DNA of 64,000 nt from Escherichia coli 042 (GCF_000027125.1 NC_017626.1), one strand, 5' to 3'; positions 33,001 through 39,000 are shown, counted from the first letter of the stretch. Numbers: made by a program.

Positions 33001-36000
33001 ATTCATTCTGGCGATGCGATTGCTTTTGTTACCGCCCAGGAAAAAATCATTTTGCAGATCCAGTGTCGGATCAGCGACGAAGAACGTCGCGGGCAGCTTA
33101 TCCACGCGCTGGCGGCACGGATCCAAAGCGAATTTGGCGTGACCGCGGCTATCGATCTGTTGCCGCCCCACAGTATTCCCCGAACGTCCTCCGGCAAGCC
33201 TGCCCGTGCGGAAGCGAAAAAACGTTATCAGAAGGCTTATGCTGCCAGTCTTAATGTGCAGGAATCCCTGGCATGAATCAAACTGTCGCGGTGACGGGCG
33301 CTACCGGGTTTATCGGTAAATATATTATCGATAACCTGCTCGCCCGCGGCTTTCACGTTCGCGCATTGACGCGTACTGCCCGCGCTCACGTCAATGATAA
33401 TCTCACCTGGGTGCGCGGTTCGCTGGAAGATACTCATTCACTTAGCGAGCTGGTTGCCGGAGCCAGCGTAGTGGTCCATTGCGCCGGGCAAGTGCGCGGG
33501 CACAAAGAAGAGATTTTCACCCGCTGTAACGTTGACGGCAGCCTGCGCCTGATGCAAGCAGCAAAAGAGAGCGGCTTTTGCCAACGTTTTCTGTTTATCT
33601 CTTCGCTGGCGGCGCGCCATCCCGAGCTCTCCTGGTATGCAAAATCCAAATACGTCGCCGAGCAACGACTGGCAGCAATGGCGGACGAAATTACGCTGGG
33701 CGTTTTTCGCCCGACAGCCGTGTATGGTCCCGGCGATAAAGAGTTAAAACCGCTGTTTGACTGGATGCTGCGCGGCCTGCTGCCACGACTTGGTGCGCCA
33801 GATACACAGCTCTCTTTTCTGCACGTCACCGATTTCGCGCAAGCAGTGGGTCAGTGGTTAAGCGCCGAAACTATACAGACGCAAACCTATGAATTATGCG
33901 ATGGCGTCGCCGGCGGCTATGACTGGCAACGCGTACAGCAACTTGCCGCCGACGCCCGTTGCGGTTCCGTGCGAATGGTTGGCATTCCTCTGCCGGTACT
34001 CACCGGCCTTGCGGATATCAGTACCGCGTTGAGTCGCCTGGCAGGTAAAGAACCTATGCTGACCCGCTCGAAAATTCGTGAATTAACCCACGCCGACTGG
34101 TCGGCAAGTAATAACCGTATTTCTGAAGATATTAATTGGTTTCCCGGGATTAGCCTGGAACACGCATTACGCAACGGGCTATTTTGATTGTCTTGTTTAA
34201 AGGTGTGTTAACGTTTCTATGGTAAATCGTGAAATAGTAATGGATTACATCCTTTCCTGTTTACAGGATTTGGTCGAAAACGGTGTGGAAATTAAGCCCG
34301 ACAGCGATCTCGTCAACGATCTTGGCCTGGAGTCGATCAAAGTGATGGATCTCTTAATGATGCTGGAAGACAGATTCGATATTTCCATTCCTATTAATAT
34401 TCTGCTGGATGTCAAAACCCCTGCGCAATTAATGGAAACTCTACTTCCATGGCTGGAGAATAAATAATGGGGCTATACGATAAATATGCGCGCCTTGCTG
34501 GCGAGCGACTGCAATTTAGTGACAACGGGTTAACACCGTTTGGCACCTGTATTGATGAAGTGTATTCCGCCACCGAAGGCCGGATCGGCAATAAAAAAGT
34601 GATTCTGGCCGGGACCAATAATTATCTCGGTTTAACCTTTAATCATGATGCCATCAGCGAAGGTCAGGCCGCGTTAGCGGCCCAAGGTACCGGCACCACC
34701 GGTTCTCGTATGGCAAACGGCAGTTATGCGCCGCACCTGGCGTTAGAGAAAGAGATTGCCGAGTTTTTCAATCGCCCTACCGCTATCGTTTTTTCAACCG
34801 GTTATACCGCTAATTTAGGCGTCATCAGCGCACTTGCCGACCATAACGCCGTGGTGTTACTGGATGCCGACAGCCACGCCAGTATTTATGACGCCTGTTC
34901 TCTCGGTGGCGCGGAAATTATTCGTTTCCGCCATAACGATGCTAAAGATCTGGAACGGCGCATGGTTCGCCTCGGTGAACGGGCGAAAGAGGCGATTATC
35001 ATCGTTGAGGGTATCTACAGCATGCTCGGTGACGTTGCGCCGTTAGCGGAAATTGTTGATATCAAACGTCGTCTCGGTGGTTATTTGATTGTCGATGAAG
35101 CGCATTCGTTTGGCGTGTTAGGCGCAACGGGGCGCGGACTGGCTGAAGCTGTCGGCGTTGAAGATGATGTGGATATTATCGTTGGCACCTTCAGTAAAAG
35201 TCTGGCCTCGATTGGCGGTTTTGCTGTCGGTTCGGAAGCGATGGAAGTGCTGCGCTACGGCAGCCGCCCGTATATTTTTACCGCCTCTCCTTCTCCGTCC
35301 TGCATTGCGACCGTGCGCTCGTCGTTAAGAACTATTGCCACACAACCAGAGCTGCGGCAAAAGCTGATGGATAATGCCAACCATCTGTATGACGGTCTGC
35401 AAAAACTGGGTTATGAGTTAAGTTCACATATTAGCCCGGTAGTGCCGGTAATAATCGGTTCGAAAGAGGACGGTTTACGCATCTGGCGCGAGCTTATTTC
35501 GCTGGGCGTTTATGTGAATCTTATCCTGCCACCTGCCGCGCCTGCAGGCATCACGCTGCTGCGCTGTAGCGTAAACGCTGCTCACAGTCGTGAGCAAATC
35601 GATGCCATCATTCAGGCATTTGCTACTCTGAAGCAGTAATGTGAGCCCGCCGTGGTGTTGCGCCACGGCGGGTTTAATGTTGTCTGTCATACCAATACAC
35701 CAGGCTCAACGCCACCAGCACAAACGCTATCGGTAAACCGAGCGCGGTAACAGGTGCGCTCAACGCAAATAGCAATCCCAGATTGACCATGATTTGATAG
35801 CTGATCCAGGTGAGTAAGCCAACGATGACACCTACAGCGAGACGGCTACCCATCCCTGGCGAGCGCGGGGCGCTAAAGGTAAACGGCACAGCCAGCAAAA
35901 TCATCGCCAGGGTCAGGATGGGTTGCCCCAGTTTTTCCCACAGTGCAAGGCGGTATTCGCTGCTGGGTTGCCCGGTTTCCTGCAAATAATGGATGTAATG

Positions 36001-39000
36001 ATTAAGCTGACGGACAGAAAAAGTATTGCCCGGCATTGATAACTCTTCAAGATCCATACTGGTGAAGGCCGATTGCCAGGCAAGATTATCTAATGTTTCC
36101 AGCGTTTCTTTGCCATTCAGCCATTTTTTATGATTCACACCATGCAGGATCCACGTTTTGTCGTCTTCAATGGTGGCACTGCGTGCATAAATGTAGGATT
36201 CGAGCGAGAGATCGTCGCGATAATGAAAAATCTCCACGCCCACCGGCTGGCCCTGCTCGTTCAGCGATTTCACCGTCACAAATTCATTACCACGCCTGGC
36301 CCACAGCATATTGCCGGTAATGTCATCGTCCTCCCCCAACGCGGTGGCGGTCGATTTGATTTGCAACGCCTGTTGCTGTAATGGCGACGCTACCCACTCA
36401 TCTATCGCGCCTAACGAAACAGTCCACAATATCCCTGCAACCAGCGCCACCAGTGCAATACGGAAGATAGAAAACCCCATGCTGCGAATGGCGGTAAGCT
36501 CACTGTTTTTCGATAACTGCCCCAGGCCGACAATCCCTCCCAATAAGGCGATAAATGGCGAAAGTTCGACCAGTGTGCGCGGTAAGGTCATTAGCACCAC
36601 CAGCACCGCCTGAGTCCAGCGATAACCGCCCGGGCTGACATCATCCAGTTCGTTAATCAGGTTGAAGGTGGTAAAAAGCGGCAGCAATAGCCCTGCGGCG
36701 GCGGCAAAACCGAGAAAGAGATGACGGATTAAATAGCGGCTGAAAACATTCATCGGGAAAATTTCTGCAGCAAAGAGAAGTCGCGTGCGACCAGCATCAG
36801 CAGGCCCATTAGCATGAGTCCGGGTACTAACCACAAACCAGGAATGAGGGGAATCGCGCCGTTAGCCACCAGCGTACGGCAGACGTCACCGCCATAAAAA
36901 ATGGCAATAAACAGCAACGTCAGTGGCAATAACGTTGAAAATCGCCCTTGCCGCGGTTTTACCCGACTTAATGAAATGGCCAGCAGCGCCATCAACAATG
37001 CGGTCAGGCCACGGCTTTGCCGCCATTGCAGTTCGGCATGATCGGCTGGAAAGACGGAGCGCGCCAGCTCCGTGACCGATTTCGCTTTGCGTTTGACGTT
37101 AGGGCTTTGATCCAGCGGATTCAGATGTAATTGCAGATTACGGTAGATCTGTTCGTTGTCATCACGCCCCTGATGATCGATAAGATAGGCAGTGCCGTTG
37201 TGCAACATAACGGTCGGTTTCTCGGGTGATGGGTCAACCACATCAACCGAACGGGCGCGGAAAATGCGGGTTCGATTGGCAGTAGAAGTATAAATCAGCG
37301 CGTCAGTCAGGCGATTATTATCCTGATCAACCGTCTGCGAAAGGATCATTCGTCCGTTATCGTTAGTGTTAAATTTCTTTGCCCGCAACTGGCGAACATC
37401 CAGCTCCGACTGCGACTGCTGCTCCAGTTGATAAATCTGCGCATAAGCCCACGGACGACCATACATCGACAGAAGGGTGACAAAAATACTTAGCGGTATC
37501 GCCAGATAAAGAACGGCTTTGTACAAGCGTCCCGGACTGCCCCCCGCCGCAGAGATAGCGGTAATTTCCGAGTCGGTATACATCTGCCCTAGCGTCACGC
37601 CAACTGACACATACAGACCAACAGGTAACAACATCTCCAGTGCAATCAGTACTTTGTAGAAAACGATATCCAGCACAACATCAAGAGCTAATGTCCCATT
37701 TGCCGCTTCGGTCAGATAACGCTGTGCGGAGTAGCTGGCGAAAATAAAGATCAGAAAACCGACGATAATCAGCACCAGACGGCGCGTACCACGCATGATG
37801 TAGTGTTCAACCAGCTTCATCTCACTAACGCCCTCAATCCTTTGAGTTTTTTATTCATTGATCAGTTTCTGCGCCAACGCAATGACATGATCTACCTCTT
37901 CCGGCGTCAGGCTGCCGTCCTTTGCCCACTGAATTTGCCCGGCTTTATTCAGCACCAGAATGGTTGAACTCTGCTCCGGCAAGCGCCAGGCAACGCGTCC
38001 CTGTCCATTGCCGTCAATAACGAATTGCGCCCACGGATAGCGGCGTTTATTTTTTTCGATTTTGCCAACAACAAAATAGCCAGTACCAAAGATGGCATCA
38101 TCGGTGTTCACAATGGTGGTGGGCTGAAAACGATCCTGCGGAAAGTTTGCCGCTTCAACCGCTTTAATTAACAGTGAGTTCTTTTTCTTCGCCGACTTAC
38201 GCCCGGCGATATACTGAATAATGCGGACTTTTCCCGCTAATTGTGTGCTGTTCCACTTTTGGTAGTGAATTTCGTCGTCGCTATTCAGAAGCAGCTCGCC
38301 GCCTTCCTGGATATAAACAGGGGTAACCGTTTTGCCAGTGACGAAATTGTGTGCCTGCACACCCGGGGCTAAGAGCATGATAATCAACGCAATAATCAAA
38401 CGAGATGACATCATTGCTCCGGCTATAGCGGAAAACGCGAAATCAGCAGCTCTAAGCGCTGACGAATATCGCTATCCAGCGCCACCGGTGCATCATACGA
38501 CTGGCGGTTTTCCATATCATCCGCCACCATGTCGTCGTGTTTATCTCCCATCAGGCCATTAATGGCGGCGAGGAAGCGGGATATCTGTAACGCCTCTTTA
38601 TTTTCAGGATCAAGCGATCTTAAGGTGTCGTAATAAGAAACCTGCTGGCTGATGATTTTTCGCACATCATGAAATTCCCTACCGGTTAGTCGCGGTTTGG
38701 CAATAATCTCTTTCAGGGTATGCATTTGCTTTTGCCGATAGGCAATAAAACTGCTTACGCTTTCTAACTGGCTATGGCGTAATGAATAGTTCACCAACGA
38801 CCAGACCGGAGAGCTTAAATAAATCCGTAACAGGTTGCCGTAATACGACACAATATTTTTCTTACCGTTACGGAAACCATCCTGAAAACGCCCCAGAAAA
38901 ACGGTCGTTTTGCCGAATAAAAATCCGGCCTGATGCTTCTTTAAATACAGCCGTTGCGCAAAACGCAGGTGCTTGTAGCGCGCTCGCATGTATTTAAATT

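What the first reader, a model, noticed from the sequence alone, without database searches (positions are those of the whole stretch)
35674..37820. Orphan LptF/LptG-like permease pair with no adjacent ATPase
Two coupled YjgP/YjgQ-family permeases converge on the lipid operon, but no LptB-like ABC ATPase is encoded nearby. They are presumably a second copy beside the essential lptFG, and may extract a locus-specific lipid from the inner membrane using a borrowed ATPase or another energy source.
Basis: partly seen in the sequence, partly recalled or inferred. Interest (0 to 1): 0.6.

Follow-up and report, generated by a model that had tools for sequence, protein, structure and literature searches.

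The report
Second LptFG pair, sphingolipid locus
Most natural E. coli strains carry a second, divergent copy of the LptF/LptG membrane permeases inside their sphingolipid-synthesis gene cluster. It most likely exports that lipid using the cell's single LptB ATPase, an idea a 2026 preprint on Caulobacter already proposed and partly demonstrated.

Summary
Window 35674-37820 (minus strand) holds two intact, translationally coupled genes. One is LptF-like (356 aa) and one is LptG-like (359 aa). The window is E. coli chromosome, in the glc-yghO...yghT-pitB-hyb region.

- **Second copy.** The pair is only 28-29% identical to canonical LptF/LptG. The canonical genes are in 5425 of 5426 complete E. 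coli genomes; the second pair is in 4155. K-12 lost it through an IS5-associated deletion.
- **Setting.** The pair converges on aasR-cerR-acpR-spt. It also ends a minus-strand run of seven tightly spaced genes: yghS-yghR-yghQ-(CHAD-like)-(YtfJ-like)-lptF2-lptG2.
- **Linkage.** In all 55 related loci with full flanks (Enterobacterales, Pseudomonas, Azotobacter, Betaproteobacteria and others), the pair lies next to spt and/or yghO (the bacterial ceramide synthase).
- **ATPase.** No locus has a dedicated LptB. E. coli has a single lptB. The coupling helices that dock LptB are conserved.
- **Selection.** dN/dS is 0.04-0.07, so the genes are under purifying selection.

It is not new. Uchendu, Isom and Klein (bioRxiv, April 2026) showed that Caulobacter LptF2/LptG2 bind LptB, and they drew this E. 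coli locus from strain UTI89. "No adjacent ATPase" is also normal for canonical lptFG. No experiments exist in E. coli.

The parts
36750..37820 (-). lptF2: LptF paralogue, 356 aa
   Evidence: TIGR04407 318 bits over model positions 2-346 of 347. 29% identical to K-12 LptF. AF2 model has pLDDT 83, long TM helices, a coupling helix at 85-91 and a beta-jellyroll at 150-232. Foldseek matches all PDB LptF chains with TM-score 0.63-0.75. dN/dS 0.05-0.07.
35674..36753 (-). lptG2: LptG paralogue, 359 aa, translationally coupled to lptF2 through an ATGA overlap
   Evidence: TIGR04408 308 bits over model positions 2-350 of 351. 28% identical to K-12 LptG. ATGA overlap. dN/dS 0.04-0.05.
35642..35676 (.). 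16-bp GC-rich hairpin between the convergent stop codons of spt and lptG2; probable bidirectional terminator
   Evidence: consensus scan only
34467..35639 (+). spt, serine palmitoyltransferase
   Evidence: NF047599, 599 bits, cut-off 500. The E. coli BL21 orthologue ECD_02854 was assayed in PMC9386255.
34219..34467 (+). acpR, specialised acyl carrier protein
   Evidence: ACP models. ECD_02853 in PMC9386255.
33273..34187 (+). cerR/epi, NAD-dependent epimerase/SDR family reductase
   Evidence: ECD_02852 in PMC9386255.
31588..33276 (+). aasR, fatty acyl-AMP ligase / acyl-AcpR synthetase
   Evidence: NF006624, 872 bits. ECD_02851 in PMC9386255.
30042..31184 (-). yghO, homologue of Caulobacter CC_1154 (bCerS / 'aca' N-acyltransferase)
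   Evidence: No Pfam or NCBIfam hit. Equated with CC_1154 in PMC9386255 Fig. 9. It is the gene most tightly linked to lptF2G2 in other taxa.
37851..38414 (-). YtfJ-family periplasmic protein with a signal peptide-like N-terminus, immediately upstream of lptF2
   Evidence: TIGR01626, 212 bits. Co-occurs with the pair in Enterobacterales only.
38423..39247 (-). 274-aa 'hypothetical' protein with a CHAD-domain fold
39247..40596 (-). yghQ, MOP/Polysacc_synt-family flippase candidate; same family as Caulobacter CC_1166
   Evidence: CC_1166 is described in the S1 Text of PMC11324152.
40642..42145 (-). yghR (40642-41400) and yghS (41432-42145): paralogous P-loop, thymidylate-kinase-like proteins, not ABC ATPases
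42319..43011 (+). yghT, third P-loop paralogue, divergently transcribed

Best explanation
The two genes encode LptF2 and LptG2, the membrane subunits of a second LptB2FG-type lipid extractor. This extractor belongs to the E. coli sphingolipid locus, not to LPS export.

Inferred pathway:
1. AasR, AcpR, Spt, CerR and YghO (bCerS) make a ceramide at the cytoplasmic face of the inner membrane.
2. YghR/S/T and the CHAD-like protein probably build a phosphorylated head group.
3. YghQ flips the lipid to the periplasmic leaflet.
4. An LptF2-LptG2 heterodimer, powered by two copies of the cell's only LptB docked on the conserved coupling helices, extracts the lipid. It passes the lipid through its beta-jellyroll domains towards the outer membrane, probably over the existing LptC/A/DE bridge.

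Shown here: the pair is a second copy, is tightly linked to sphingolipid genes across taxa, has the LptF/G fold and coupling helices, has no dedicated ATPase, and is under purifying selection.

Shown elsewhere, for Caulobacter only: LptF2-LptG2 form a complex, bind LptB, and are essential only when the anionic sphingolipid is made.

Inferred only: that all of this holds in E. coli, the identity of the E. coli lipid, and the periplasmic route.
For: - Family and fold.
- Second copy.
- Dispensable, so not the LPS exporter: K-12 has an IS5 in place of everything between yghO and a truncated yghQ.
- Gene organisation: seven tightly spaced minus-strand genes, yghS-yghR-yghQ-CHAD-like-ytfJ-like-lptF2-lptG2, with gaps of 45 nt or less.
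- Synteny: of 80 loci found with an LptF2 profile, all have LptG2 directly downstream. All 55 with full flanks also carry spt and/or yghO.
- Separate orthologous family: Pseudomonas LptF2 is 53-61% identical to E. coli LptF2 but only 27-30% to P. aeruginosa canonical LptF.
- ATPase: no LptB-like gene lies in any of the loci. The ABC hits there are nucleotide-binding domains of ~580-aa fused exporters or belong to unrelated operons. E. coli has one lptB per genome.
- Docking: the coupling-helix Glu and surrounding motif are invariant.
- Cavity: several phosphate-binding residues are kept (LptF R33, LptF K317 as R/K, LptG K62 as R, LptG R136 as K/R). LptG K34/K40/K41 are replaced by N/D, D/E and D across the whole clade, which fits a different anionic cargo (residue roles from PMC6744409).
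- Selection: dN/dS 0.04-0.07.
- Literature: Caulobacter LptF2/G2 bind LptB and are conditionally essential, and E. coli UTI89 is drawn in their Fig. 2B. UTI89 carries this same locus. Transport was proposed earlier in PMC11324152. The E. coli BL21 synthesis genes were characterised in PMC9386255.
Against: - There is no experiment in E. coli. A native E. coli sphingolipid has not been reported in the papers read.
- I could not obtain the Caulobacter LptF2/G2 sequences, so direct orthology with the studied proteins is untested. They could be independent recruitments.
- E. coli has no LptC2, and whether LptF2G2 can dock canonical LptC/LptA is unknown.
- The contrast at LptG K34/K40/K41 is weakened because P. 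aeruginosa canonical LptG also lacks these lysines (A, N, D).
- A divergent second LptB elsewhere in the genome, below about 65% DNA identity, cannot be excluded with the tools used.
Confidence: 0.75

Rival explanations
1. LptF2G2 is energised by something other than LptB: the neighbouring P-loop proteins YghR/S/T, or another unlinked ABC ATPase.
For: Three P-loop genes lie in or beside the same gene run. They co-occur with the pair in Enterobacterales and in some Pseudomonas. LptB binding has not been tested in E. coli.
Against: YghR/S/T have a Walker A motif only, no LSGGQ-type signature. Their best matches are thymidylate-kinase-like and they show no similarity to LptB beyond the P-loop. 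Azotobacter, several Pseudomonas, betaproteobacterial and Nitrosomonadaceae loci have LptF2G2 with no YghR/S/T within 10 kb. The coupling helices are those of an ABC transporter and are conserved with canonical LptF/G. The Caulobacter pair binds LptB.
Confidence: 0.07
2. The pair is an alternative or back-up LPS (or other glycolipid) exporter unrelated to the sphingolipid genes. The neighbourhood is coincidental, as the RefSeq names 'LptF' and 'LptG' imply.
For: Both proteins pass the NCBIfam equivalog cut-offs for LPS-export LptF and LptG. Several lipid A phosphate-binding cavity residues are retained.
Against: Linkage to spt and/or yghO holds in 55 of 55 full-flank loci across distant genera. 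Canonical lptFG is universal in E. coli, whereas about 23% of complete genomes, including K-12, lack the second pair. The clade-wide acidic substitutions at LptG K34/K40/K41 include the position where K34E is lethal in the LPS exporter.
Confidence: 0.07
3. The locus is a silent evolutionary relic in E. coli, and the pair has no present function.
For: K-12 and about 1270 other complete genomes lack it. Public assemblies contain truncated and fused lptF2 products and an IS1 insertion.
Against: The ORFs are intact in 4098 genomes at 95% identity or more. dN/dS is 0.04-0.07, similar to spt and pitB. The whole 13-gene module is conserved in order in Hafnia, Citrobacter, Pluralibacter and others.
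Confidence: 0.05

Closest known systems
Caulobacter crescentus LptF2/LptG2 (CCNA_01214/CCNA_01213 = CC_1156/CC_1155); Uchendu, Isom & Klein, bioRxiv 2026, 10.64898/2026.04.12.717747; proposed earlier by Olea-Ozuna et al. 2024, PMC11324152
   Same: A second LptF/LptG pair encoded inside the sphingolipid locus, next to bCerS. There is no LptB in the locus and only one LptB in the genome. A Polysacc_synt-type flippase (CC_1166 / YghQ) lies in the same locus. The preprint's Fig. 2B draws the E. coli UTI89 locus, which is this locus.
   Different: E. coli has no LptC2. The head-group genes differ: E. coli has YghR/S/T P-loop proteins plus CHAD-like and YtfJ-like proteins, while Caulobacter has CpgABC and others. 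In E. coli the pair ends a separate gene run that converges on spt, rather than following bCerS. Complex formation, LptB binding and conditional essentiality are shown only in Caulobacter. Sequence orthology was not tested here.
Canonical E. coli LptB2FG(C) LPS extractor (LptF b4261, LptG b4262)
   Same: Same fold and length, with a beta-jellyroll domain. The coupling helix and its conserved Glu are the same. The gene pair is overlapping. lptB is unlinked in both cases.
   Different: Only 28-29% identity. The second pair is dispensable and absent from K-12. LptG K34/K40/K41 are replaced by N/D/D. The genomic context is sphingolipid synthesis rather than pepA/yjgR.
Sphingomonas wittichii LptFG (Swit_3905/3906) beside the spt operon
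   Same: LptFG genes lie adjacent to sphingolipid synthesis genes.
   Different: In Sphingomonas they are the only LptFG and the organism makes no LPS. In E. coli they coexist with the LPS system.

Membership tests
LptF/LptG permease family (Pfam PF03739; NCBIfam TIGR04407/TIGR04408) | Full-length profile match above the curated cut-off | tested here: met
   318 bits (cut-off 230) and 308 bits (cut-off 240), each covering nearly the whole model. PF03739 is precomputed for the orthologues.
LptF/LptG permease family (Pfam PF03739; NCBIfam TIGR04407/TIGR04408) | Six TM helices with a periplasmic beta-jellyroll between TM3 and TM4 | tested here: met
   LptF2 AF2 model. Foldseek matches all solved LptF chains over the full length. 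For LptG2 this rests only on the full-length HMM and PDB sequence alignments.
LptF/LptG permease family (Pfam PF03739; NCBIfam TIGR04407/TIGR04408) | Cytoplasmic coupling helix with the conserved Glu (LptF E84, LptG E88) that docks LptB | tested here: met
   Invariant in E. coli LptF2/G2 and in 32 orthologues of each. The functional role of E84/E88 comes from my own knowledge of the Lpt literature.
Canonical LPS-export LptF/LptG (the equivalog meaning of the RefSeq names) | Essential, universally present LPS extractor of the species | tested here: not met
   Absent from K-12 and from about 23% of complete genomes. The canonical pair is in 5425 of 5426. LPS transport itself is not testable here.
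Sphingolipid-locus LptF2/LptG2 (Uchendu et al. 2026) | Encoded within or next to the sphingolipid synthesis locus (spt, acpR, aasR, cerR, bcerS) | tested here: met
   The linkage holds in 55 of 55 full-flank loci from other taxa.
Sphingolipid-locus LptF2/LptG2 (Uchendu et al. 2026) | Present in addition to a canonical lptFG, with no dedicated lptB and a single lptB in the genome | tested here: met
Sphingolipid-locus LptF2/LptG2 (Uchendu et al. 2026) | LptF2-LptG2 complex that binds LptB; deletion lethal only when the anionic sphingolipid is made | not testable with these tools
   Known only for Caulobacter.
Sphingolipid-locus LptF2/LptG2 (Uchendu et al. 2026) | Sequence orthology with CCNA_01214/CCNA_01213 | not tested
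   The Caulobacter sequences could not be retrieved. The only evidence is the preprint's colouring of homologous genes in Fig. 2B.

The most novel reading that the evidence does not exclude
Most natural E. coli isolates make, under conditions not yet found, an uncharacterised phosphorylated sphingolipid. Its head group is built by the three YghR/S/T P-loop proteins and a CHAD-like (polyphosphate-binding-type) protein. YghQ flips it and LptB2F2G2 extracts it. LPS and this lipid therefore compete for the one LptB and the one periplasmic Lpt bridge. K-12's IS5 deletion would be why this lipid and this coupling have gone unnoticed in the model organism.
Probability: 0.3. Interest if true: 0.6.

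Novelty: already known. Interest (0 to 1): 0.3.

Why it matters
If the model holds in E. coli, the LPS export machine, which is a current antibiotic target (LptB2FG inhibitors such as zosurabalpin), shares its ATPase and probably its bridge with a second lipid pathway in about three quarters of E. coli strains and in many other Enterobacterales and pseudomonads. It would also mean that the outer membrane of wild E. coli can contain a lipid class that K-12 cannot make. On the practical side, the RefSeq names 'LptF' and 'LptG' for these genes are over-annotations. They can mislead copy-number or essentiality analyses.

Tried and rejected
- **Retrieving Caulobacter or Sphingomonas LptF2/G2 for a joint phylogeny.** The representative-library hits at 33-38% identity lie on short, unnamed metagenome contigs. 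Choosing high-Ala/Arg/Gly/Pro representatives and listing their clusters gave only unnamed or 'Gammaproteobacteria/Competibacterales MAG' entries. I abandoned this, so orthology is untested.
- **Bit-score comparison of those representatives.** Many resemble a Deltaproteobacteria/Desulfobacterota-type LptF more than they resemble E. coli LptF2. The deep origin of the LptF2 clade is therefore unresolved.
- **YghR/S/T as the missing ATPase.** Rejected, because they have no ABC signature motif and match kinase-like families.
- **The one LptB-like hit in the window (1158-1796).** It is KpsT with its own KpsM, belongs to a capsule locus, and is irrelevant here.
- **LptB-like hits in related loci.** These are C-terminal nucleotide-binding domains of fused ~580-aa exporters or belong to distant unrelated operons.
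- **Defence-system models (PADLOC).** Only marginal P-loop hits for the accessory proteins.
- **Rfam.** No RNA family within the locus.
- **Promoter and terminator scans.** Counts are no higher than in shuffled sequence. Only the spt/lptG2 hairpin stands out.
- **Hyp274 versus the Pseudomonas gene between yghO and lptF2.** Unrelated.
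Full report
**What is there.** The window is E. coli chromosome. It runs from the end of a kps-type capsule locus through gsp/sslE, glcABCDEFG and yghO, then across a 13-kb lipid cluster to yghT-pitB-gss-hyb-metC. At 36750-37820 and 35674-36753 on the minus strand lie two genes of 356 and 359 codons. Their stop and start codons overlap in ATGA.

The proteins match the full-length NCBIfam models for LptF (318 bits, cut-off 230) and LptG (308 bits, cut-off 240). They also match every solved LptF or LptG chain. An AlphaFold2 model of the LptF-like protein (pLDDT 83) has the long TM helices, a short coupling helix at residues 85-91 and a beta-jellyroll at 150-232. It superposes on all PDB LptF chains with TM-scores of 0.63-0.75.

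**It is a second copy.** K-12 LptF and LptG are only 29% and 28% identical to these proteins. The canonical lptFG DNA is present in 5425 of 5426 complete E. coli genomes. The second pair is present in 4155, and 4098 of those cover at least 80% of the query. Carriers therefore have both.

K-12 has an IS5 element in place of everything between yghO and a truncated yghQ. The pair is thus dispensable and cannot be the LPS exporter. Within Escherichia both genes evolve under strong purifying selection, with dN/dS of 0.04-0.07, similar to spt and pitB.

**Context.** The pair converges on the plus-strand operon aasR (fatty acyl-AMP ligase), cerR/epi (an SDR family reductase), acpR and spt. A 16-bp hairpin lies between the two stop codons. 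The divergently transcribed yghO is the homologue of Caulobacter CC_1154, the bacterial ceramide synthase. These five E. coli genes (ECD_02850-02854 in BL21) have been described, and partly assayed, as sphingolipid synthesis genes (PMC9386255).

Upstream of lptF2, on the same strand and with gaps of 45 nt or less, lie five more genes:
- yghS and yghR, which are P-loop kinase-like proteins;
- yghQ, a MOP/Polysacc_synt-type flippase of the same family as Caulobacter CC_1166;
- a 274-aa unannotated protein;
- a YtfJ-family periplasmic protein.

**Is the link to the lipid genes real?** I built a profile of LptF2-like proteins and used it to scan one genome per species. This returned 80 loci. I then searched those loci with all cluster proteins by tblastn.
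- All 80 have LptG2 directly after LptF2.
- Of the 55 with full 10-kb flanks, 50 carry spt-acpR-cerR-aasR and 49 carry yghO. Every one carries at least one of the two.
- The nine loci that show neither have at least one short flank (cut contigs or shorter stored stretches).
- The taxa include many Enterobacterales, Pseudomonas, Azotobacter, Betaproteobacteria, Nitrococcus, Thiotrichales and Salinisphaera. In Nitrosomonadaceae and Desulfobacterota the pair lies next to yghO only.

Pseudomonas LptF2 is 53-61% identical to E. coli LptF2 but only 27-30% identical to P. aeruginosa's own canonical LptF. The second pair is therefore a separate orthologous family that travels with the sphingolipid genes. 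It is not a recent local duplication.

**The ATPase question.**
- The only ABC ATPase in the window is KpsT. It has its own permease KpsM and lies 34 kb away.
- YghR/S/T have a Walker A motif, no ABC signature, and only thymidylate-kinase-like matches.
- None of the 80 related loci has a stand-alone LptB-like gene beside the pair. The ABC hits are nucleotide-binding domains of ~580-aa fused exporters, or unrelated operons 7-9 kb away. In Pseudomonas and Azotobacter the fused exporter sits just downstream of spt; those loci lack YghQ.
- lptB is single-copy in 5425 genomes, even with sensitive blastn.
- The coupling-helix motif is conserved between the canonical and second pairs and invariant across 32 orthologues. 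This includes the Glu at the position of LptF E84 and LptG E88.
- Canonical lptFG is itself unlinked to lptB in E. coli. "Orphan" is therefore the normal state for these permeases.

**Cargo hints.** The LPS-contact residues are listed by Tang et al. 2019 (PMC6744409). In the LptF2/G2 clade, LptF R33, LptF K317 (as R/K), LptG K62 (as R) and LptG R136 (as K/R) are kept. LptG K34, K40 and K41 are uniformly replaced by N/D, D/E and D. This fits a smaller anionic cargo that is not lipid A. The argument is weak, however, because P. aeruginosa canonical LptG also lacks these lysines.

**Comparison with what is known.** Olea-Ozuna et al. 2024 proposed that CC_1156, CC_1155 and CC_1168 (LptF2, LptG2, LptC2) and the flippase CC_1166 export phosphosphingolipids. 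Uchendu, Isom and Klein (bioRxiv, April 2026) then reported three things:
- Caulobacter lptF2, lptG2 and lptC2 can be deleted only when spt or cpgB is absent.
- LptF2 and LptG2 co-purify with each other and with the sole LptB.
- The pair occurs in many sphingolipid loci of alpha- and gammaproteobacteria.

Their Fig. 2B draws the E. coli UTI89 locus. UTI89 carries the same gene order as this window. What I add is the quantified distribution, synteny, selection and residue analysis for the E. coli/gammaproteobacterial branch. No experiment exists in E. coli, and I could not retrieve the Caulobacter sequences to test orthology directly.

**Verdict.** It is already known at the level of concept and of this very locus. 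My estimates for each step are:
- second copy: about 1.0;
- functionally tied to the sphingolipid locus: about 0.9;
- uses LptB: about 0.7;
- uses the canonical periplasmic bridge: about 0.5.

Overall interest is low to moderate (0.3). The open and more interesting questions are the identity and expression conditions of the E. coli lipid, and what sharing LptB means for LPS export.

Noticed in passing
[not shown]
   Followed up: partly
window 40642-43011: yghR, yghS and yghT are three paralogues, 34-44% identical to each other. They are thymidylate-kinase-like P-loop proteins and RefSeq names two of them 'dTMP kinase'. They co-occur with the sphingolipid cluster in Enterobacterales and some Pseudomonas. 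They are candidate lipid or head-group kinases; their function is unknown..
   Followed up: partly
window 1-2650: A low-GC stretch (35-41%) carries a cytidylyltransferase-domain gene (356-1051), a KpsT-like ABC ATPase (1137-1808), a KpsM-like permease (1805-2641) and a JUMPstart element (2610-2648, minus strand). This looks like the end of a group-2-type capsule locus abutting gspM/yghD..
   Followed up: partly
window 1-25000 versus 43000-64000: The capsule/gsp/sslE/glcA part is at most 96% identical to the best complete E. coli genome. The pitB-hyb-metC part is 99.9% identical to many genomes. The T2SS/SslE region of this strain is therefore an unusually divergent allele..
   Followed up: no
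window 35674-39247: Against E. whittamii and Escherichia sp. E1V33, synonymous divergence of lptG2, the ytfJ-like gene and the CHAD-like gene (dS 0.67-0.79) is mostly two- to three-fold that of yghO and spt (0.22-0.34); lptF2 is low against E. whittamii (0.29) but 0.54 against E1V33. This suggests a recombined or divergent allele patch inside the locus..
   Followed up: no
L031, L038, L044, L050 and other loci (Pseudomonas, Azotobacter, Betaproteobacteria): In these taxa the cluster has a different architecture. spt-acpR-cerR-aasR is divergent from yghO-(MobA-like NTP-transferase, like Caulobacter CC_1153)-lptF2-lptG2-(DAG-kinase-like lipid kinase). In Pseudomonas and Azotobacter a fused MsbA-type ABC exporter of about 580 aa lies just downstream of spt; these loci lack YghQ. 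The YtfJ-like and CHAD-like genes are absent within the flanks..
   Followed up: partly
L004 (Hafnia alvei) 17854-18579: In Hafnia a 4'-phosphopantetheinyl transferase gene (ACPS family) lies directly beside the yghO homologue at the edge of the cluster. It may be the enzyme that activates AcpR. E. coli has glcC at that position..
   Followed up: no
public E. coli assemblies (P0003-P0006, P0014-P0016, P0020; H1-H3): The locus shows recurrent damage. There are YtfJ-LptF2 fusion ORFs, LptF2-PitB (PHO4) fusion ORFs that imply deletions, an IS1 insertion in strain MRE162, and the IS5-associated deletion in K-12..
   Followed up: no
L008 (metagenome contig) 887-4746: A distant LptF/LptG pair (36% identical to LptF2) is preceded by an LptB-like ABC ATPase and a sulfotransferase gene. 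This is a different arrangement in which the ATPase is linked to the permeases..
   Followed up: no
window 22357-22578 (+), 47812-47888, 58858-58928: Rfam finds the C0719 sRNA between sslE and glcA, and naRNA4/REP-type elements in the gss-hyb region. These are ordinary E. coli features..
   Followed up: no
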